Below are positions 11,723 through 62,512 of a stretch of DNA of 64,000 nucleotides, piece by piece. Source of the stretch: Candidatus Moraniibacteriota bacterium (GTDB taxonomy: Bacteria > Patescibacteriota > Minisyncoccia > Moranbacterales > GCA-2747515). The DNA is taken from the NCBI GenBank assembly GCA_023133275.1, contig JAGLWU010000021.1, positions 1,341 through 65,340 on the forward strand. The letters run 5' to 3'. The first letter of the stretch is position 1; every line of letters begins with the position of its first letter. The notes below the pieces were generated by a model, which had not been told where the DNA came from, ran no database searches, and saw nothing but the letters and a program-made list of their open reading frames with translations. The translations under genes were made by a program, and so were the position numbers.

Positions 11723-13843
11723 TCACCTCACAAAACACCCCTGCAAATTCCCACCACCCACATCACCAGCCCCAACAACATCATCCCCCAACATCAACAC
11801 ATACAATTTCAAAGTCCCAAAAGACCTCTCATCCACAATCATATGATTCACCAACATCTCATCATTAACATGCACCCCCGTCTTCTCCCGAACCAGCAAA
11901 TAAAAATTCCCACCCGAAACAATCTCTTTTTCAAAACCGCCCCGCTTTACATAACACAACAACCCCTCACCCTCACTTTTAGAATTAACCAAATAAAAAA
12001 TCGCCCGAGCATACCGATTATCACCCACCACAATTTTACCAACATCATTATTTCCGCTTTTATTTTCCGATTCCAAAATATAATCCGCCACATCCCGCAA
12101 CTGACTTAAAATAATTCTGTCCGACCTTTTTAAAACAAGATCCCGACTAGATTCAATATTTTCCGTTCTCGATAAATGCAATTCCGTAAAACCAATTTTA
12201 ATATTAAACAAATTTATCACTATAAAAATAATTGTTAATCCTATCGTAATAAATTTTCCAAATCTCCGAAAAACTTTTTCAATAAAATAAAAAACAGATC
12301 CCAGTAAAATCAAAAATGGCGGATACATAAAAAGAAAAAATCGTGGAGAAATTTGATAAGCTACCAAAATTAAAAACAAACCGCCCATCACTAACCACGG
12401 CAAAATTAAAAATATCGCCGAATGTTTTTTTCTGAACAAAGAGTTGCAATTCCTTGTTAAGTTTTTACAAAATTTCCTACTTCTTCTGAACAAGAGGTCA
12501 TGACCCCTTGTTGAAATTCTGAAATATTCCTTCACACGAGAGAATGAAAAGTTTTTTAAATAAATTCTCACAGCAAATAAAGTTCGCCGAAAAAATAATT
12601 TGATCGATTTTCTATCTCTGCGCAAACCACTTTTTTTATAAACAACATAAAAATTCCTTTTAAAAATATAAAAGAAAAAAGTCGCCAAAGAAATTAAAAA
12701 TAAAATTATTGCCAAAATTAAATAAAGTAATCTCTCCTTGCAAGTCTTATCACAAATCAAAGGAAAATAACCCTGTGTTTGTTTTTTAGTAATTAATAAA
12801 TCCCGACCATGCTGATCGCCCGTAAAAATCGTGAAGAAAAAAGTACTACTTTCTTGAAAAGCTCGAAAAGTTTTTTCCGCTAAATCATGTTTATCATTTT
12901 TATCTTCCGTAACTGAAGCAATTAAACCTTTCGTATTCTTCCCGCCAGTTTTGTACTCGTTAACAATGACTGGAAAAAATAAAAGGATAATTAAACTTAA
13001 TGAAATTAAAATCGTTTGCCAAGAAATTCGTATTTTTGAAAAGATAAAATAAATTATAAAAACCACAGGAAAACATAAAAACGCAATAAAATGAAGTTGT
13101 AATAAAATTGCTGTTGAAAAAATTGCGAGAATAAACCACCGAGATATTTTTTTATTTGCAAAAAATTTATTTACAAACCAATTCTTAAAATTTATTAAAA
13201 ATTTATTAAAAAAATTGTGCTTGCCGCACGGGCAAAATACCTTTTCACAATCGTTCACTGATTTTCCATCAGCTTTTTTAAAATTAAAAAATAGTTTTTG
13301 ATTGTAAAAACGTTTTGGCAAAATATCTTTACCTAAAAAATTTCCACACCGCAACAAAGAATACGCCGCCAACATTAACCAAAAAGGCATTGAATTTGGA
13401 TTCCATGCAAATCGCCCGTAAATAATTAAAAAATAAGAAAAAGATGTTATCGTGAAAAGTAAAAAACTAATTCTTCTAGAAAAAAATTGTCGTGCGAAAA
13501 AATAGGATAACGGAATTGTTAAAATTGAAAATAGTAAATCTGGAAATGCAACAGCAACTGGCAAAGAAGTATTTTGCCAAAACATATTTCTTGCAAAAAT
13601 CTTCGCAGAAAAAAATTGGAAGTAATAAAAAATAGGACCAAGTTGTAATTCTCGCCCTCGTGCTTGTGGACCGAGTAATGGCAAATCTCTCGTTCCATCG
13701 ATCGCATCTGAAATTATGAAAACGTCTCGTGCCTGATCCAATTCAAAATGCAACCAATCTGTAAAATGATAAGTTCGTAAAAATATTCCGACAATGAATA
13801 TCGCAATTGCTAAATATATTATTTTGTTTTTTGTGTTAAACAT
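11723..13843 (-). CDS. PMT/ArnT-type GT-C membrane glycosyltransferase, paralog 2. Carries in-frame repeat-element insertions.
   Basis: N-terminus FELDQARD...PLLGPQARG is paralogous to 2256..4220. At 706 aa it is longer than its paralogs. Two stretches match the intergenic repeat family. Bases 13219-13235 encode CPCGKHNFF, and 12431-12524 encode HDLLFRRSRKFCKNLTRNCNSLFRKKHS. Confidence 0.65.
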   Translation of the reverse strand: MFNTKNKIIYLAIAIFIVGIFLRTYHFTDWLHFELDQARDVFIISDAIDGTRDLPLLGPQARGRELQLGPIFYYFQFFSAKIFARNMFWQNTSLPVAVAFPDLLFSILTIPLSYFFARQFFSRRISFLLFTITSFSYFLIIYGRFAWNPNSMPFWLMLAAYSLLRCGNFLGKDILPKRFYNQKLFFNFKKADGKSVNDCEKVFCPCGKHNFFNKFLINFKNWFVNKFFANKKISRWFILAIFSTAILLQLHFIAFLCFPVVFIIYFIFSKIRISWQTILISLSLIILLFFPVIVNEYKTGGKNTKGLIASVTEDKNDKHDLAEKTFRAFQESSTFFFTIFTGDQHGRDLLITKKQTQGYFPLICDKTCKERLLYLILAIILFLISLATFFFYIFKRNFYVVYKKSGLRRDRKSIKLFFRRTLFAVRIYLKNFSFSRVKEYFRISTRGHDLLFRRSRKFCKNLTRNCNSLFRKKHSAIFLILPWLVMGGLFLILVAYQISPRFFLFMYPPFLILLGSVFYFIEKVFRRFGKFITIGLTIIFIVINLFNIKIGFTELHLSRTENIESSRDLVLKRSDRIILSQLRDVADYILESENKSGNNDVGKIVVGDNRYARAIFYLVNSKSEGEGLLCYVKRGGFEKEIVSGGNFYLLVREKTGVHVNDEMLVNHMIVDERSFGTLKLYVLMLGDDVVGAGDVGGGNLQGCFVR

Positions 13844-26748: not shown

Positions 26749-26930
26749 GTGCTCGTCGCACGGGCTTTTGAGGTTTGCCAATGGCAAACCACTACAGATT
26801 TTTAAACTCCCTCAGACATATCATTCCAGAAAATAACTTTATAATAAAATGGAAAAATTATTTATCCGAAATCTATATTTTAAGATTTAAGAAAATTTAA
26901 AGCATAACATTCTTTCAGAATAACACACTA
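26749..26930. repeat. Mosaic palindromic intergenic repeat element (modules A+F+C+D), copy R1
   Basis: GTGCTCGTCGCACGGGC (26749-26765). Palindrome GGTTTGCCAATGGCAAACC (26772-26790). ATTTATCCGAAATCTATATTTTAAGATTTAAGAAAATTTAAA (a near-identical copy is at 45568-45609). CATTCTTTCAGAATAACAC. Confidence 0.8.
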
Positions 26931-32150: not shown

Positions 32151-32325
32151 GTGCTCGCCGCACGGGCTTTTCTGAACAAGAGATTACAACTCCTTGTTGA
32201 AATTCTAAAATATTTTTGTTATCTAAATTTTCCGTTATTTAAGTTTACTGTCATTCTGAACGGATTTAATTCTTCACTACATAATTTTTATTTCATAAAA
32301 ATTACTTCATTCAGAATGACAAATT
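32151..32325. repeat. Mosaic palindromic intergenic repeat element (modules A+B2+C/C' inverted pair), copy R2
   Basis: GTGCTCGCCGCACGGGC at 32151-32167. TTCTGAACAAGAGATTACAACTCCTTGTTGAAATTCTAAAA. CTGTCATTCTGAACGG (32249) and its inverse CATTCAGAATGACA (32308). Confidence 0.8.
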
Positions 32326-35115: not shown

Positions 35116-35221
35116 TTTGTATTAGTCTACTTTAAATTATACAGAATTTTTTTGATCTTGACAAAGCCTGTTAATTATTTGAATGTTAAAAAATATAATA
35201 ATTAAATTGTAACATAAAAAA

Positions 35222-35256
35222 TTGACTTGACATAATAATAATAATATAAATTTACA
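35222..35256 (+). promoter_or_regulatory. Promoter cassette copy a: TTGACtTGACA + (AAT)4 + TATAAAT
   Basis: cTTGACAtaataataataatataaat. Same cassette at 44122, 52582, 57121 and 62421. Confidence 0.55.
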
Positions 35257-36924: not shown

Positions 36925-37008
36925 ACAATATCAATTAACTTATTTTCTAATTCGTAGAGACAAGGCATGCCTTGTCTCTACAGTCAAAAAACAATTCGAA
37001 TTACCAAT

Positions 37009-39964: not shown

Positions 39965-40125
39965 GTGCTCGCCGCACGGACTTTTCACCATTTAACTTTT
40001 TTCGAAATTCTGAAACATTTCCGTAATATCTCTTGTCATTCAAATTACCTGTCATTCTGAACGTAGTAAATTTATTGCAGATAAATTTATGTAGTGAAGA
40101 ATCCCCCACAGAGAATCATAAAACT
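39965..40125. repeat. Mosaic repeat element (modules A+C+E), copy R4
   Basis: GTGCTCGCCGCACGGAC. CCTGTCATTCTGAACG. TTATGTAGTGAAGAATCCCCCACAGAGAATCATAAAAC (module E, also at 55949-55985). Confidence 0.75.
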
Positions 40126-44012: not shown

Positions 44013-44121
44013 ATTTAAATAAGTTTATTTTGATAAAAAAATTTTAAACGACTTATTTAAATAATAGTTTATAAATTGCCTTTTGTAAATTTATTTAAAG
44101 TTTTAAATCAAAAAATTCTAC

Positions 44122-44150
44122 TTGACATAATAATAATAATAATAATAATG
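44122..44150 (+). promoter_or_regulatory. Promoter cassette copy b: TTGACA + (AAT)7 + GTAAAC
   Basis: cTTGACAtaataataataataataataatgtaaac. Longest microsatellite of the five copies. Confidence 0.55.
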
Positions 44151-45429: not shown

Positions 45430-45640
45430 GTGCTCGCCGCACGGGCTTTTCTGAACAAGGGGTCATAACCCCTTGTTTAACCCCTACAAAATTATACGAC
45501 CCCCCGACCTGTCATTCCGAAAAATATATTTTCTTTCAGAGCGTAGTGATGAACTAGAAAATAATTTATCCGGAATCTATACTTTAAGATTAAAGAAAAT
45601 TTAAAATACAATACACTTCCTAAATTCCGGATAATTTTTT
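45430..45640. repeat. Mosaic repeat element (modules A+B1+C+D), copy R5
   Basis: GTGCTCGCCGCACGGGC. TTCTGAACAAGGGGTCATAACCCCTTGTTTAACC. CCTGTCATTCCGAAAAATA. ATTTATCCGGAATCTATACTTTAAGATTAAAGAAAATTTAAA. ATTCCGGATAA is the inverse of TTATCCGGAAT. Confidence 0.8.
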
Positions 45641-52515: not shown

Positions 52516-52581
52516 TGATAAAAAAATTTTAATATTCTTAACTAAGTTCTATAATAACATGAATTTTAAATGAAAAAAAGC

Positions 52582-52606
52582 TTGACATAATAATAATAAT
52601 AATATA
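52582..52606 (+). promoter_or_regulatory. Promoter cassette copy c: TTGACA + (AAT)5 + ATAAAA
   Basis: gcTTGACAtaataataataataatataaaatg. Confidence 0.55.
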
Positions 52607-52722
52607 AAATGAAATATTACGATTTCTTAAATTAGCGATCGTAAATAGTTTCTTAAAAATAAGAAATAAAGTTTTTCAACGATTGATTTATTTTTCATAA
52701 ACAAATTCAATAGGAGTAAAAG

Positions 52723-54712: not shown

Positions 54713-55798
54713 TTATTCCTCAATCTCCCGCAACTTCTCAATCAATTTCTTTTCCTTTCGAGAAAGTTTAGTCGGCACATCAACAATAACCTTAACCAAA
54801 TGATCACCTCGCCCAAACCCACGCAACTTCGGCACACCCTTCGAACGAATACGGTAAATCTCACCAGATTGAGTCCCTGCCGGCACTTTCATCTTCACCG
54901 AACCCTCAACCGTCTCCACATCAATCTTATCCCCCAAAGCTGCCTGAGCAAAACTCACATGAACCGTACTATTAATATCATCACCATCCCGTTCAAACCT
55001 CTCATCTCGAACAACAGAAATCGTAACCAATAAATCACCCGCAGGAGCACCATTTTCACCCGCCTCACCCTTACCGCCAACCGCCAATGTTTGACCAGAA
55101 TTAATCCCGGCTGGCACTTCTATTTTTTCAGCAACTTCTTCCTTATGTCGACCATCACCACCACACTGACTACATTTTTTATCAAAAGTTTTTCCTTTGC
55201 CTTTACAATCATGACACACAACATTTTGAGCAAAATTTCCCAACATTGTTCGCATCATTTTTTTAATTTTTCCACTACCTTTACAAGTTTTACAATTTTC
55301 TTCTTTACTCCCAACCTCACCACCATTCCCGCCACATTTTTTACAAACAATTGCCTTATAAAGTTTAATTTCTTTCTGAACACCAGAAATCATTTCCGCA
55401 AAAGTAATCTCCACCTCAACCTGAATATCTCGTCCTCGCGACTGTCTCCCACCGCTTCCACCACCACCGAAAATATCTGAGAAAATATCACCAAACCCCT
55501 CTCCGCCACCAAAATTAAATTCAAAACCACCATCTTGACCTCTAAATTGATTAGGATCAAAACCGCCACCCTGACCACCACCAGCACCGTTGAAAGTTTG
55601 ACCGAACTGATCATATTGCGATCTTTTTTGCTTGTCCGACAAAACTTGATATGCTGAATTAATTTCCTTAAATTTAGCCTCATCACCGCCCTTTTTGTCA
55701 GGATGATGTTTATGAGCCAATTTCCGATACGCCTTTTTAATTTCATCATCAGACGCTCCCCGATCAACTCCTAAAATTTTATAATAATCTTCTGCCAT
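54713..55798 (-). CDS. dnaJ: Chaperone DnaJ
   Basis: J domain with HPD ([14 protein letters not shown]). G/F-rich region. Four CxxCxGxG zinc-finger repeats. Start placed at [11 protein letters not shown]. The upstream extension contains repeat module A. Confidence 0.9.
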
Positions 55799-55828
55799 AT
55801 TGTTTATTTTAAAGTTTAAAAAATAATT

Positions 55829-55985
55829 GTGCTCGCCGCACGGGCTTTTCTGAAACAATGGATCATGACCCCTTGTTGAAATTCTAAAAATTTTCTGTCA
55901 TTTTTACTGTCATTCTGAACGGAATAATTTTTATAAAATAAAAATTATGTAGTGAAAAATCCCCCACAGAACACCACGAAACATT
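55829..55985. repeat. Mosaic repeat element (modules A+B1+C+E), copy R6
   Basis: GTGCTCGCCGCACGGGC. TTCTGAAACAATGGATCATGACCCCTTGTTGAAATTCTAAAA. TGTCATTCTGAACGG. TTATGTAGTGAAAAATCCCCCACAGAACACCACGAAAC. Confidence 0.8.
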
Positions 55986-56167: not shown

Positions 56168-57127
56168 TTAATTTTTAACATCCAAATAAGCCCTCCTAAC
56201 CGCCAAATTAATTTTTGTCGGTCGAAATTTAACATCCAAATAATTCTTAAGCTTTCGCAAAAATAAATAAATATTCAAATAAATTTTCCAAAAACCCTTA
56301 CCGTGTTTACGAAAAAATAAAATACCTGATAAAACTAACCAATAAATTTTCTGCGACTGATTTTCCTCGCTTTGCTCTTGATGATAAACTTTTGCACTCG
56401 GAACAATCAAATTTTTCAATTCAGCTTTTTTCACTCGCAAAGATAAATCTGCATCCTCATAATAAAGAAAAAAAAATTCATCAAATAATCCAACTTTCTC
56501 AAAAACTTTTTTACTAATCAACATCGCACAACCTGTTACATATTCTGTTTCTTCTACATCTGTGTAGGGAACGGTTTGAAACCGTTCCCTACCAAACACG
56601 ACTTGAAACCATTTCCTACCAAACAATGATATACAATCAAAATGTTCCGCCCTCATTTTCCACCAATTTATTTTTCCACCACAGAACCAAATATTTTTAT
56701 ATTTTAAATCTGAATAAATCACAGGACTTACTAATCCAATTTCACTTTCATCTTTAATAGAATCAATCAATTTTGAAATTGTGTTTTTTCGCACCAATGC
56801 ATCATTGTTCAAAAGAAAAACATAATCTGCGCTATTTTCAAAAGCAAATTTTATACCAACATTATTTCCCGCTCCGAATCCGAGATTTTTTTTGTTTTTA
56901 ATAAAATAAATTTTTGAAAAGTTTTTTTCACTTGAACAATGGGTTGCAACCCATTGTTCAGCTAGATTTAAAGAATTGTCAGTAGAATTATTATCCACTA
57001 AAATTATTTCTAAATTTTGATAATTTGAATCAACTACACTTTTAATAGTTTTTAGTAAATCTGTTCCGCCATTGTAATTTAGAATTATGACAAATATTTT
57101 TGGTTTTTTTGGAATTGTACTTGACAT
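56168..57127 (-). CDS. GT2-family glycosyltransferase carrying an in-frame palindrome/tandem-repeat insert
   Basis: KIFVIILNYNGGTDLLKTIKSVVDSNYQNLEIILVDNNSTDNS (GT2 N-terminus). DxD YYEDAD. N-terminus MSSTIPKKPK shared with 61255..62427. Confidence 0.8.
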   Translation of the reverse strand: MSSTIPKKPKIFVIILNYNGGTDLLKTIKSVVDSNYQNLEIILVDNNSTDNSLNLAEQWVATHCSSEKNFSKIYFIKNKKNLGFGAGNNVGIKFAFENSADYVFLLNNDALVRKNTISKLIDSIKDESEIGLVSPVIYSDLKYKNIWFCGGKINWWKMRAEHFDCISLFGRKWFQVVFGRERFQTVPYTDVEETEYVTGCAMLISKKVFEKVGLFDEFFFLYYEDADLSLRVKKAELKNLIVPSAKVYHQEQSEENQSQKIYWLVLSGILFFRKHGKGFWKIYLNIYLFLRKLKNYLDVKFRPTKINLAVRRAYLDVKN

Positions 57128-57145
57128 AATAATAATAATTTAAAC
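57101..57145 (+). promoter_or_regulatory. Promoter cassette copy d (TTGACA + (AAT)4 + TTTAAAC), overlapping the divergent GT2 start codon
   Basis: tggtttttttggaattgtacTTGACAtaataataataatttaaac. The GT2 ATG is the reverse complement of the CAT inside TTGACAT. Confidence 0.55.
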
Positions 57146-60770: not shown

Positions 60771-60955
60771 ATTGTTTGTAATTTATTAAATTTCTTTGAA
60801 AAAAATTCTGCTTTATCATAAAACATTTTCGCAAACTATCTTTTGTAATTTTAACTAAGATGAATTTAAAAATATTTATCACACGATAAAAACAAAACTC
60901 GATAATTTCAAGCTTTTTTTATTCTACTATAAAAACTTAAGATTGTCATATTTTG

Positions 60956-61262
60956 TGCTCGCCGCACGGGCTTTTCAACAAAAGGTCATGGTCCCTTGTT
61001 GAAATTCTAAAACATTTTTGTTATCAAAATTTTAGGTTTGCCACTGGCAAACCCCTACAATTTTTTATCATTTAAGTTTCTTGTCATTCTAAACGGATTT
61101 ATTTTTTCTTTAGAAAAAATAAAGGAATGAAGATTCCCTCACGAAAAATCATTAAACTTTAAATTTACTAAAAGTATCAGAAAAACTTATCTAGATTCTT
61201 CACTTCATAAATTTTTTTACAAAAAATTTATTTCGTTCAGAATGACAGGAAATTTTAAAATT
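60956..61262. repeat. Mosaic repeat element (modules A+B1+F+C/C' inverted pair), copy R8
   Basis: GTGCTCGCCGCACGGGC. TTTTCAACAAAAGGTCATGGTCCCTTGTTGAAATTCTAAAA. GGTTTGCCACTGGCAAACC. TGTCATTCTAAACGG (61092) and inverse CGTTCAGAATGACAGG (61237). Confidence 0.8.
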
Positions 61263-62427
61263 TAATCTTCTCCTCCACAAACTCCAAAATTCTATCTTTA
61301 AAAACATCTTTATCAAACTTCTCCGCAGATTTTTTAATAATATTTTTATCATAAAAATTCTCATTATCCAAAAATCGTCGCACACCATCCGCCAAAACCT
61401 CAACCGTCGGAGCATTAAAAAACTCTCCCGTAACACCTTCCTGAACAATCTCCCTCGCTCCACCTTTCCGCAAAGCAATCACTGGCAATCTAGCATTCAA
61501 CGCCTCCACGCACACAATTCCAAAATCATCCTCAGACGGAAAAATAAACGCCCGAGAATTATTTAAAATTTTCTGTTTTACCTTTTCATCCACCCAACCT
61601 AAAATTTGAATATTTTTACCAGCAATTTTTTCTAAATGTTTTCTCTCCTCACCATCACCAATCACAATCAACGGCAAATTTAATTTATTAAAAGCTTTCA
61701 CAGTCAACACCACATTTTTATAAGTAGAAAGCCGAGAGATAATCATGAAAGGTTTTTTTGAGTTTTTTCCGCATCCTCCCTTTTCTGAACAAGGGGTCAT
61801 GACCCCTTGTTCATCAAAATAATTTTCTACAAATTCAACTGGTGGATAGATAATTTCTGAATCACGTCGATAATATTTAGAAATTCTCGCTTGAGTGTAT
61901 TTTGAATTTGCAATTAAAAAATCTGGTCGCTTACTCGCCTGTGCATCCCAAATCCGCAAATAACTTAAAATTTGTCGCACAATAAAATTACTTTTAAAAT
62001 TTTTATTTCGCTTTAGATATTTTTCATTTTCATCCCAAATAAAACGCATTGGCGAATGAATGTAAGCGATGTGTTTCGTGTCAACTCGAGTTACAATTCC
62101 CTTACTCCACGCTCCCGAACTGGAAATCACCAAATCAAAATCTCGCAAATTGTAAGTTTCCACTGCCGAAGCGTAAAAAGGTAAAAGCCACCGATGATGT
62201 TTTCGAATAAACTTTGGAAATTTTTGTAAAAAAGAAGTATGGATTTTTTTGTCTTCAAACATTTTCTTCATGTTTTTTTCGTCATAAAGCAAAGTGTAAA
62301 TCGGTGCTTCGGGAAATATTTCGCAAAGTGTTTCTAATACTTTTTCCGCCCCTCCTTGATAAATTAAAAAATCATGAACAAGAGCAATTTTTAAGTTTTT
62401 AGTTTTTTTTGGATTTGTACTTGACAT
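61255..62427 (-). CDS. GT4-family (glycosyl transferase group 1) glycosyltransferase with in-frame B1-repeat insertion
   Basis: Start at MSSTNPKKTKNLKIALVHDF (internal to the longer ORF). GT4 C-domain (AFIFPSEDDFGIVCVEAL). Bases 61779-61813 match repeat module B1 and encode EQGVMTPCSEKGGCG. Confidence 0.75.
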   Translation of the reverse strand: MSSTNPKKTKNLKIALVHDFLIYQGGAEKVLETLCEIFPEAPIYTLLYDEKNMKKMFEDKKIHTSFLQKFPKFIRKHHRWLLPFYASAVETYNLRDFDLVISSSGAWSKGIVTRVDTKHIAYIHSPMRFIWDENEKYLKRNKNFKSNFIVRQILSYLRIWDAQASKRPDFLIANSKYTQARISKYYRRDSEIIYPPVEFVENYFDEQGVMTPCSEKGGCGKNSKKPFMIISRLSTYKNVVLTVKAFNKLNLPLIVIGDGEERKHLEKIAGKNIQILGWVDEKVKQKILNNSRAFIFPSEDDFGIVCVEALNARLPVIALRKGGAREIVQEGVTGEFFNAPTVEVLADGVRRFLDNENFYDKNIIKKSAEKFDKDVFKDRILEFVEEKIKF

Positions 62428-62446
62428 AATAATAATATAAAATTCA
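62401..62446 (+). promoter_or_regulatory. Promoter cassette copy e (TTGACA + (AAT)3 + ATAAAA), overlapping the divergent GT4 start codon
   Basis: agtttttttttggatttgtacTTGACAtaataataatataaaattc. Confidence 0.55.
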
Positions 62447-62512
62447 ATATTAGCTAACTCCTCACAAAATTGAGGAAAATTGTTCATTTAAAGAAAGAGG
62501 GAGATATAAAAA

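What the first reader, a model, noticed from the sequence alone, without database searches (positions are those of the whole stretch)
12431..13235. Intergenic repeat modules inserted in frame inside a PMT/ArnT-type glycosyltransferase gene (RPE-like behaviour)
The 706-aa GT39 paralog (11723..13843) contains two pieces of the GC-rich mosaic repeat family that otherwise sits between genes. Bases 12484-12524 read TTCTGAACAAGAGGTCATGACCCCTTGTTGAAATTCTGAAA (module B1). They are preceded by the B2 variant TCTGAACAAAGAGTTGCAATTCCTTGTTAAG at 12431-12461. Together they are translated in frame as HDLLFRRSRKFCKNLTRNCNSLFRKKHS. Bases 13219-13235, GTGCTTGCCGCACGGGC (module A, 16 of 17 matches to the consensus), encode CPCGKHNFF. 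This gene is about 50-85 aa longer than its two close paralogs, which have no such segments. In-frame insertion of palindromic elements that preserves the reading frame is the hallmark of Rickettsia palindromic elements. It would be unusual to document it in this lineage.
Basis: seen in the sequence. Interest (0 to 1): 0.85.

Follow-up and report, generated by a model that had tools for sequence, protein, structure and literature searches.

The report
Palindromic repeats inserted inside glycosyltransferase genes
Short palindromic repeats that normally lie between genes have been copied, in frame, into flexible loops of three sugar-transferase genes of a Candidatus Moranbacteria genome; this behaviour is known from Rickettsia and a few other bacteria, and I found no report of it for this group in the papers searched.

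Summary
Shuffles expect none of them. A codon alignment with five orthologs shows B1 as a clean, window-only 33-nt (11-codon) insertion with TTCTGAA at both ends. B2 is a window-only net +12 nt. Module A sits at the same spot in three orthologs and is absent from two. All repeat-derived segments fall in low-confidence loops of an otherwise confident AlphaFold model, and dN/dS is about 0.2, so the gene looks functional. The pattern repeats elsewhere in the window. A GT4 gene (61255..62487) and a GT2 gene (56168..57127) also carry in-frame palindromes, and their orthologs carry different modules at the same sites. The module B core, AACAAGGGGT-NNNN-ACCCCTTGTT, occurs in many phyla. It directly flanks RayT-like Y1 transposase genes, including in two candidate-phyla-radiation genomes, so it is a REP-type element. 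The closest match is intragenic REPs rather than the Rickettsia elements themselves. I rate it a new member of a known kind.

The parts
11723..13843 (-). Host gene: 706-aa GT-C fold, PMT_2/ArnT-like membrane glycosyltransferase
   Evidence: ORF and translation. Orthologs P0002-P0007 carry PF13231. AlphaFold model has pLDDT 86.7 and pTM 0.86. Foldseek matches AglB/STT3, PglB, ArnT, ALG9/12 and Pmt. dN/dS is 0.17-0.21 against five orthologs and 0.11-0.26 in each segment.
12484..12523 (.). Module B1: hairpin AACAAGAGGTCATGACCCCTTGTT plus flank. It is a 33-nt (11-codon, [11 protein letters not shown], aa 441-451) window-only insertion bounded by the direct repeat TTCTGAA (12484-12490 and 12517-12523).
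12431..12461 (.). Module B2: a decayed copy with a TTGCAA centre (AACAAAGAGTTGCAATTCCTTGTT, 4 mismatches). It encodes LTRNCNSLF and is a net +12 nt relative to all orthologs.
13217..13233 (+). Module A copy (GTGCTTGCCGCACGGGC) in frame, encoding CPCGKH on the minus strand. It has the same orientation as all six intergenic copies.
   Evidence: In the codon alignment, L003 has the perfect consensus at the same site, L004 a decayed copy and L005 an expanded copy, while L002 and L006 lack it. Its five codons are all minority codons, with frequencies 0.20, 0.18, 0.10, 0.19 and 0.27.
13558..13582 (-). Third window-only in-frame insertion (24 nt, MFWQNTSL, aa 87-94). It forms the hairpin TGGCAAA-ATACTTC-TTTGCCA. 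No other copy was found.
61780..61813 (.). Perfect module B (TGAACAAGGGGTCATGACCCCTTGTTCA) in frame in the interdomain linker of the GT4 gene 61255..62487, encoding EQGVMTPCS.
56933..56960 (.). Module B, TGCA variant (TGAACAATGGGTTGCAACCCATTGTTCA), in frame in the GT2 gene 56168..57127, encoding EQWVATHCS. It is shared with the ortholog in L008.
56564..56592 (.). GTAG-tagged 29-nt palindrome GTAGGGAACGGTTTGAAACCGTTCCCTAC in frame in the same GT2 gene (GRERFQTVPY). The L008 ortholog has module B at this site instead.
45430..45477 (+). Intergenic A+B mosaic. It is the closest donor-type copy, 97% identical over 32 nt to the GT4 copy.
55829..55877 (+). Intergenic A+B mosaic upstream of dnaJ. The true ATG is at 55798. 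The mechanical TTG-start ORF that covers the mosaic is an artefact.
32151..32198 (+). Intergenic A+B mosaic, followed by module D palindromes at 32248-32322.
60955..61053 (+). Intergenic A+B+C mosaic. C is GGTTTGCCACTGGCAAACC.
26749..26790 (+). Intergenic A+C mosaic without B.
39965..39981 (+). Intergenic module A without B or C, which shows that A and B are separable.

Best explanation
Short palindromic repeats of the REP type, which populate the intergenic regions of this Moranbacteria genome as mosaics, have been copied into protein-coding DNA. The copies that persist add a multiple of three bases, contain no stop codon in the frame used, and land in structurally permissive places. In the GT-C enzyme these are loops between transmembrane helices. 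In GT4 it is the linker between the two Rossmann domains. In GT2 it is two variable segments. There the copies are translated as 4-11 extra residues and are effectively neutral. Shown: the insertions themselves, their loop or linker location, the continued purifying selection on the host gene, and the recurrence with different modules at the same sites in orthologs. Also shown: the module B core is the palindrome that flanks RayT-like Y1 (HUH) transposase genes in other bacteria, including two candidate-phyla-radiation genomes. Inferred: that such a transposase, acting in trans on the hairpin formed in single-stranded DNA, originally spread module B in this lineage. Also inferred: that the in-gene copies were seeded from local intergenic copies, because they carry lineage-specific flanks. 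The final step may have been a microhomology-mediated copy, given the TTCTGAA repeat at both ends of B1.
For: Repeat family is real: (expected 0 by shuffles). B1 is a clean 33-nt window-only insertion, and B2 and the 24-nt hairpin are also window-only. Module A sits at the identical site in L003 (perfect), L004 and L005, and uses rare GC-rich codons. Loop location: pLDDT is 49-59 for residues 171-210, 59-77 for 391-480 and 75 for 81-90, against 90 or more in most other blocks. Gene is functional: dN/dS about 0.2 in every segment and a GT-C fold. Recurrence: the GT4 linker holds module B in the window, two B copies in L007, one in L009 and module C in L008. The GT2 site holds a GTAG palindrome in the window but module B in L008. 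REP identity: the core palindrome was found in 118 or more loci from many phyla, with about 81% self-complementary centres. It lies next to a Y1_Tnp domain in 5 of 118 loci. Homologs of that domain are mostly 160-190-aa proteins that JGI names 'REP element-mobilizing transposase RayT'. Exact copies flank such genes in a Patescibacteria contig (L155) and a genetic-code-4 CPR contig (L156/L157). In-gene copies carry donor-type flanks. Precedent for intragenic REPs and RPEs: PMC3733652, PMC10969869.
Against: No Y1/RayT gene is present in the about 115 kb of Moranbacteria DNA I could read, so a cognate transposase in this genome is unproven. Module B lacks the GTAG or CGTC tag of the classical REP superfamilies. 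IS200/IS605-type Y1 transposition does not create target duplications, yet B1 is bounded by a 7-nt direct repeat. Module A is a weak hairpin (fold z-score -0.5), has no link to a transposase, and was found only in this clade. There is no transcript or peptide evidence that the inserts are translated. All three host genes are glycosyltransferases (9 of about 45 genes in the window), which a purely neutral model does not predict, although the sample is small.
Confidence: 0.78

Rival explanations
1. Spread without a transposase. The in-gene copies arose by microhomology-mediated template switching or ectopic gene conversion from intergenic copies, driven by hairpin formation during replication. 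RayT plays no part in this lineage.
For: B1 is bounded by TTCTGAA at both ends, and the intergenic donors have TTCTGAA/TTCTAAA at the same 33-nt spacing. The in-gene copies carry 8-13 nt of lineage-specific donor flank beyond the pan-phylum core. No Y1 gene was found in the available Moranbacteria DNA. Y1 transposition does not make target duplications (established knowledge of IS200/IS605).
Against: The same core palindrome flanks RayT genes in CPR and other phyla. Only about 10% of a roughly 1-Mb genome was inspected. This mechanism does not explain how an identical 20-nt stem occurs in many phyla.
Confidence: 0.3
2. The modules inside the genes are selected cis-elements. Possibilities include mRNA hairpins that pause translation during membrane insertion, internal processing or termination signals, or recombination hot spots that diversify envelope glycosyltransferases.
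For: All three host genes are glycosyltransferases. The same loops acquire modules repeatedly in orthologs. The GT4 and GT2 copies are perfect hairpins with fold z-scores of -4.2 to -7.1. Module A has been retained at one site across orthologs that are about 30% divergent.
Against: Different, unrelated modules occupy the same site in different orthologs, so no specific sequence is conserved. B1 and B2 are decaying (1 and 4 mismatches; B1 z-score only -1.9). No U-tract follows the hairpins. Permissive loops alone explain the recurrence.
Confidence: 0.1
3. The segments are ancestral coding sequence, or a chance or convergent resemblance, and are not insertions.
For: Module A and its flanking residues (KSxNDCEKVF-CPCG-H) are shared by four of six orthologs. 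The loops are variable in all paralogs.
Against: B1 and B2 are absent from all five orthologs, with clean codon-phase gaps. Matches to the intergenic copies have an expected count of 0. Codon usage is atypical. The same palindromes occur in unrelated genes and in other phyla.
Confidence: 0.04
4. The gene is a pseudogene, or the region is a metagenome assembly artefact.
For: The source is a metagenome-assembled genome. The 706-aa protein itself has no Pfam hit at E<=0.01.
Against: The reading frame is intact, and dN/dS is 0.11-0.26 on both sides of the inserts. The structure model is confident. Analogous in-frame modules occur in independent assemblies from other samples (L003, L007, L008, L009).
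Confidence: 0.03

Closest known systems
Intragenic REPs ('REP-decorated proteins'; GTAG- and CGTC-tagged palindromic repeats, Di Nocera et al. 2013, PMC3733652)
   Same: Both are 20-40-bp palindromes that are mostly intergenic, with a minority inside ORFs in frame. Inserts are often dimers or doubles within one gene and encode roughly 10-30 aa. They were argued to sit in linkers or loops and to be neutral, and they are linked to RayT Y1 transposases. One in-gene element here (56564-56592) carries the GTAG...CTAC tag.
   Different: Module B has no GTAG or CGTC tag. The hosts here are glycosyltransferases, not the replication and repair genes emphasised in that study. The organism belongs to the candidate phyla radiation. 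The same core is shared across many phyla.
Rickettsia palindromic elements (RPE; Ogata et al. 2000 and 2002, as summarised in PMC10969869)
   Same: Both are palindromic repeats found between genes and in frame within genes, in positions thought compatible with protein fold and function. Both occur in a small, AT-rich, reduced genome.
   Different: RPE-1 type elements are about 100-150 bp and are Rickettsia families with a conserved encoded peptide. The modules here are 17-33 nt with no sequence relationship assessed. RPEs have no accepted transposase, whereas module B is tied to RayT genes elsewhere.
REP/REPIN-RAYT systems and BIMEs (Nunvar 2010, PMC2817692; Bertels and Rainey 2011, PMC3116915; Ton-Hoang 2012, PMC3333891)
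   Same: In L067, L112, L155 and L156 a RayT-like Y1_Tnp gene is flanked by copies of the palindrome. There are many dispersed copies per genome. The intergenic arrangements are mosaics (A-B-C-D), like BIMEs. Doublets are common.
   Different: REPIN-RAYT pairs are described as lineage-specific and vertically inherited. Here one 20-nt stem is shared by many phyla. Most centres are self-complementary, making perfect DNA palindromes. In four loci the Y1 unit sits in frame inside an Eco57I/MmeI-type methylase ORF.
MITEs that make in-frame fusions (ERIC, BOX, Correia and others; review PMC10969869)
   Same: Both are small non-autonomous repeats that occasionally extend or interrupt ORFs in frame.
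   Different: MITEs have terminal inverted repeats around an internal segment, are usually over 100 bp, and make defined target-site duplications. The modules here are single short hairpins.

Membership tests
REP / RAYT-associated palindromic repeats | Short (about 20-40 bp) imperfect or perfect palindrome able to form a stem-loop | tested here: met
   Module B has a 10-14-bp stem. Fold energies are -18 to -26 kcal/mol with z-scores of -4.2 to -7.1 for the perfect copies.
REP / RAYT-associated palindromic repeats | Many dispersed copies per genome, mainly intergenic | tested here: met
   Eight module B and seven module A copies lie in 64 kb. Four of 8 B copies and 6 of 7 A copies are intergenic, although 85% of the window is coding. 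The whole-genome count was not available.
REP / RAYT-associated palindromic repeats | Conserved GTAG or CGTC tetranucleotide at one end | tested here: not met
   Module B begins (TG)AACAAGG and module A has no tag. Only the palindromes at 56564-56592 and 36954-36981 are GTAG...CTAC.
REP / RAYT-associated palindromic repeats | A RayT (Y1 HUH transposase) gene flanked by the same palindrome | tested here: inconclusive
   Met in other genomes: L155 (Patescibacteria), L156/L157 (code-4 CPR), L067 and L112. In L065, L109 and L127 the palindrome was found only on the 3' side of the Y1 domain. No Y1 gene was found in the window or in 50 kb of related Moranbacteria loci, and the rest of this genome could not be searched.
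Rickettsia palindromic elements (RPE) | Membership of one of the RPE sequence families (about 100-150 bp for RPE-1) found in Rickettsia | tested here: not met
   The modules are 17-33 nt and the organism is Candidatus Moranbacteria. No sequence comparison with RPE consensus sequences was run.
Rickettsia palindromic elements (RPE) | The same repeat is present both between genes and in frame within functional genes, at structurally tolerated positions | tested here: met
MITE | Terminal inverted repeats around an internal region, with a defined target-site duplication | tested here: inconclusive
   B1 has a 7-nt direct repeat (TTCTGAA) at both ends, but the element is a single hairpin with no internal region. 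No duplication could be defined for the GT4 or GT2 copies.
GT-C glycosyltransferase (PMT_2 / GT39-GT83-like) - host gene | Multi-span GT-C fold with a conserved acidic motif in the first external loop | tested here: met
   D36 and D40 (ELDQARD) are invariant in 61 homologs. The model has 13 helices and a C-terminal domain. Foldseek finds AglB, STT3, PglB, ArnT, ALG9/12 and Pmt. Orthologs and paralogs hit PF13231, but the 706-aa protein itself gave no Pfam hit at E<=0.01.

The most novel reading that the evidence does not exclude
A single REP/RayT family with the core AACAAGGGGT-NNNN-ACCCCTTGTT has spread horizontally across more than ten bacterial phyla, including the candidate phyla radiation. 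Its transposase is sometimes nested in frame inside Eco57I/MmeI-type restriction-modification genes, which could act as the vehicle. In Moranbacteria the family repeatedly writes itself into loops of cell-envelope glycosyltransferases, so these loops are being remodelled by selfish DNA.
Probability: 0.3. Interest if true: 0.7.

Novelty: new member of a known kind. Interest (0 to 1): 0.5.

Why it matters
The finding extends protein-coding palindromes from Rickettsia and a handful of Proteobacteria and Verrucomicrobia to an ultra-small, reduced candidate-phyla-radiation genome. It also gives unusually clean evidence for the process: an empty-versus-filled orthologous site for B1, and different modules occupying the same loop in sister lineages. 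In practice, such inserts inflate protein lengths, weaken domain detection (the 706-aa protein lost its Pfam hit) and can mislead annotation and structure-based inference in these genomes. Linking module B to RayT genes gives a testable mechanism. The cross-phylum identity of the palindrome bears on the question of whether REP/RAYT systems are strictly vertically inherited.

Tried and rejected
1. Rfam at gathering threshold and ARAGORN on the whole window found nothing, so the modules are not a curated RNA family or tRNA-derived.
2. The metagenome scan for module A (GCCCGTGCGGCGAGCACAA) returned 27 loci, all at 45-74% GC and in unrelated contexts. This gives no evidence that A exists outside the Moranbacteria clade.
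3. The third insertion (13558-13582) and the GTAG palindrome (56564-56592) have no other copy in the window or in the fetched loci.
4. All-against-all clustering of ORFs near 118 palindrome loci gave no dominant neighbouring family. The Y1 link emerged only from ORFs that contain the palindrome.
5. tblastn of the Y1 domains against the window and nine Moranbacteria loci gave no significant hit.
6. A cluster look-up of ten NCBI RayT homologs returned no organism names, so I could not show a Moranbacteria RayT.
7. A PDB sequence search with the GT-C profile gave no hit; the fold search was needed.
8. Literature searches for the palindrome sequence, for CPR plus palindromic in-frame repeats, for Patescibacteria plus RAYT, and for IS200 plus Eco57I found nothing relevant.
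9. I considered the L002 and L006 versions of the module A loop as further repeat remnants, but their DNA shows no convincing palindrome, so I dropped that claim.
10. GGCAAAATAC occurs twice, both times in this gene. That is only weakly above chance, since 2 of 100 shuffles reach the same count.
Full report
**Source and setting**

The window is 30.4% GC. It is identical to part of a 77.7-kb scaffold of a Candidatus Moranbacteria metagenome-assembled genome, ENA ERZ23498525, where the protein is named KAT32_02085. About 85% of the window is coding. It is rich in cell-envelope genes. There are nine glycosyltransferases: five PMT_2-type GT-C enzymes, one ALG10-like, one GT2 and two GT4. It also encodes two GH28 hydrolases, a sortase, SecDF, a LysM/LytR_C-domain protein and housekeeping genes. 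No transposase was detected.

**Checking the observation**

- All three sequences exist. B1 is at 12484-12524 and B2 at 12431-12461, exactly as written.
- Module A is at 13217-13233, two bases lower than stated. It is one substitution away from GTGCTCGCCGCACGGGC.
- That consensus recurs, always on the plus strand, at 26749, 32151, 39965, 45430, 55829 and 60955. Seven matches were found where shuffles expect none.
- The ORF 11723..13843 is on the minus strand and reads through all three without a stop.
- The intergenic copies form mosaics: A then B; A then B then C (GGTTTGCCANTGGCAAACC); or A alone. Longer CTGTCATTCTGAACG palindromes often follow. A, B and C are therefore separable modules.
- I compared every gene in the window with all intergenic DNA. 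The only GC-rich matches were the two places in this gene and one in a GT4 gene.

**Are they insertions?**

The paralogs are only 33-34% identical, so I used orthologs instead. Six proteins are 48-68% identical to the query by BLASTP and 624-639 aa long. I fetched DNA for five of them, which are 67-75% identical over aligned columns. A codon alignment gave the following.

- **B1** is an 11-codon gap in all five orthologs. The extra 33 nt read TTCAGAATTTCAACAAGGGGTCATGACCTCTTG on the coding strand and are followed by a second TTCAGA. On the plus strand this appears as TTCTGAA at 12484 and again at 12517.
- **B2** is also private to the window gene, a net +12 nt within diverged neighbours.
- **A third private insertion** of 24 nt (residues 87-94) forms a 7-bp hairpin but has no other copy.
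- **Module A** behaves differently. L003 has the perfect consensus GCCCGTGCGGCGAGCAC at the same codon positions. L004 has a decayed copy, and L005 has a copy expanded by a further GC-rich hairpin. L002 and L006 lack both the module and its flanking codons.
- The five codons of module A (CCG TGC GGC AAG CAC) are all minority codons in this genome, with frequencies 0.20, 0.18, 0.10, 0.19 and 0.27. That fits a non-coding origin.
- Module A is therefore either an older insertion lost twice or a recurrent one. I cannot tell which.
- Most of the 52-86 extra residues relative to the paralogs come from a long basic loop shared with P0002, not from the modules.

**Is the gene still a gene?**

- dN/dS against each ortholog is 0.17-0.21. 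It is 0.11-0.26 separately for the parts before and after the inserts.
- An AlphaFold model built on 61 homologs has mean pLDDT 86.7 and pTM 0.86, with 13 long helices and a C-terminal domain.
- Foldseek places it with GT-C enzymes: AglB/STT3, PglB, ArnT, ALG9/12 and Pmt.
- The low-confidence stretches are residues 171-210 (holding module A), 391-480 (holding B1 and B2) and 81-90 (holding the third insert).
- From the order of helices and the very basic composition, I infer that the B1/B2 loop is cytoplasmic. This is an inference, not a computed topology.

**The behaviour is general**

- **GT4 gene (61255..62487).** It has a perfect TGAACAAGGGGTCATGACCCCTTGTTCA in the linker between its two Rossmann domains, encoding EQGVMTPCS.
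  - Among close orthologs, L007 has two B copies there, L009 has one, and L008 has module C in frame, encoding GLPLANP.
  - P0122 and P0125 have a different 16-aa segment, which I did not examine at the DNA level.
  - More distant orthologs have unrelated linkers.
- **GT2 gene (56168..57127).**
  - It carries a TGCA-centred B copy (EQWVATHCS) that is shared with its L008 ortholog.
  - At a second site it carries a 29-nt GTAG...CTAC palindrome, where L008 has module B instead.

Overall, four of the eight B copies in the window are inside genes. All four are in frame, and all are in glycosyltransferases.

**What module B is**

These came from Smithella, Ignavibacteria, Chloroflexi, Trueperaceae, Spirochaetes, KSB1, Peribacteria, Patescibacteria, cyanobacteria and others, often with several copies per genome.
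- The centre is TGCA in 72 copies, TTAA in 16 and CATG in 4. About 81% of centres are self-complementary, so these are perfect DNA palindromes.
- The TGCA form has no stop codon in any frame. The CATG form has a TGA in one frame, and that frame is not used in the genes here.
- Sixteen of 121 copies lie in open frames of at least 250 aa. Examples include a methylmalonyl-CoA mutase and a protein with a type IX secretion C-terminal sorting domain (Por_Secre_tail).
- In five loci the palindrome abuts a Y1_Tnp (IS200-like, HUH) domain, and in L067 and L112 it lies on both sides.
- Homologs of that domain are mostly free-standing 160-190-aa proteins that JGI names 'REP element-mobilizing transposase RayT'.
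- In a Patescibacteria contig (L155), exact copies lie 41 nt upstream of such a gene and inside its 3' end. A genetic-code-4 CPR contig (L156/L157) has three copies around its RayT gene.
- Module B is therefore the REP of a RayT family that also exists in the candidate phyla radiation.
- I found no Y1 gene in the roughly 115 kb of Moranbacteria DNA available. That is about a tenth of a roughly 1-Mb genome, so this says little either way.

**Mechanism**

- **Shown:** insertion, in-frame survival, loop or linker location, recurrence at the same sites, and the REP-RayT link elsewhere.
- **Inferred:** RayT-type mobilisation in this lineage.
- **Against a simple Y1 mechanism:**
  - B1 has a 7-nt direct repeat at both ends.
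  - The in-gene copies carry 8-13 nt of lineage-specific flank that matches the local intergenic mosaics. The GT4 copy is 97% identical over 32 nt to 45446-45477, and B1 shares GAAATTCTGAA with the intergenic scaffold.
  - This suggests that at least the last step was a microhomology-mediated copy from an intergenic donor.
  - I keep that as the main rival for the mechanism step.
- **A selected cis-function** is possible but not needed. Different modules occupy the same site in sister lineages, and B1 and B2 are already decaying, with 1 and 4 mismatches and a weak fold for B1.

**Comparison with what is known**

- In-frame palindromic repeats are the hallmark of Rickettsia RPEs (summarised in PMC10969869).
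- Intragenic GTAG/CGTC REPs, often dimers encoding 20-30 aa and argued to sit in loops, were reported in Opitutus, Thauera, Thioalkalivibrio and others (PMC3733652).
- This case works the same way, but it is not an RPE, given the size and the organism. Module B also lacks the GTAG or CGTC tag.
- I found no paper that reports this palindrome, or REP/RayT elements in Patescibacteria. Absence from the searchable library is not proof of novelty.

**Verdict**

This is a new member of a known kind. It is of moderate interest in itself. Two side observations would raise the interest if they hold up: the cross-phylum REP/RayT family, and its nesting inside restriction-modification genes.

Noticed in passing
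L065:2-1804, L109:710-4675 (minus strand), L112:152-4276, L127:3621-6224: A RayT-like Y1_Tnp domain, followed directly on its 3' side by the AACAAGGGGTTGCAACCCCTTGTT palindrome (on both sides in L112), sits in frame inside long Eco57I/MmeI-type restriction-modification methylase ORFs in four unrelated MAGs. In three of them the methylase domains lie on both sides of it; the L065 ORF is cut at the locus start. I found no report of this in the library.
   Followed up: partly
L112:2090-2260 and 1232-1380: 'Onion' arrays: several left half-sites (AACAAGGGGT) at 30-nt spacing are followed by several right half-sites at 27-nt spacing. They are translated as LNKGLQHDLPLNKGLQ...PLVHDSDATPLV. It looks as if the element has inserted repeatedly into the centre of an earlier copy.
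   Followed up: no
L010-L127 (genome scan): The 24-nt palindrome is shared by many phyla, with lineage-specific outer extensions. Examples are palindromes of up to about 36-44 nt (L040, L117) and copies in the Chloroflexi MAG flanked by inverted TTACGCA...TGCGTAA motifs. Sixteen of 121 copies lie in open frames of at least 250 aa, including a methylmalonyl-CoA mutase (L031) and a Por_Secre_tail-domain protein (L050; L047 has the same motif context).
   Followed up: partly
window 36954-36981: A perfect 28-nt GTAG...CTAC palindrome, GTAGAGACAAGGCATGCCTTGTCTCTAC, lies in the intergenic DNA next to the tyrosyl-tRNA synthetase gene. It is another REP-like family, present as a single copy in the window.
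   Followed up: no
window 35216-35251, 44111-44146, 57110-57145, also 52581-52619 and 62418-62452: A repeated promoter-like motif, CTTGACATAATAATAATAAT..., lies upstream of several genes. One copy is inside the mechanically called 410-aa GT4 ORF, whose start in NCBI gives 390 aa.
   Followed up: no
window 54713-55858: The listed TTG-start ORF runs through an intergenic A+B mosaic ([15 protein letters not shown]). The DnaJ domain begins at residue 4 when the ATG at 55798 is used as the start. This apparent N-terminal intragenic repeat is therefore an ORF-calling artefact, and a caution for counting in-gene copies.
   Followed up: yes
L005:85-2004, loop codons of P0006: The module A copy in this ortholog is expanded by an extra GC-rich hairpin (GCCTGCCTGTCACGCCTGTGGCGACATGGCAGACAGGC), encoding CPRGEPACHACGDMADRH. 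This is a repeat nested within a repeat, inside a gene.
   Followed up: partly
window 13231-13240 and 13569-13578: The 10-mer GGCAAAATAC occurs twice in the window, both times in this gene. One copy adjoins module A and the other is inside the third insertion, on opposite strands. The expected count is 0.2, and 2 of 100 shuffles reach 2. This is unexplained and may be chance.
   Followed up: partly
window 1-24600: A dense glycosylation island. It holds five PMT_2-type GT-C paralogs, an ALG10-like GT-C, two GH28 hydrolases, a beta-helix protein, and an Abi_alpha gene wedged between two GT-C paralogs. Transcription diverges at about 18.2-18.6 kb.
   Followed up: no
window 7 module A copies: All seven module A copies, including the in-gene one, are on the plus strand, while nearly all neighbouring genes are on the minus strand. 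Two copies lie about 30 nt upstream of a start codon (45400, 55798). This may indicate a transcription-related role for module A, or an orientation bias.
   Followed up: no
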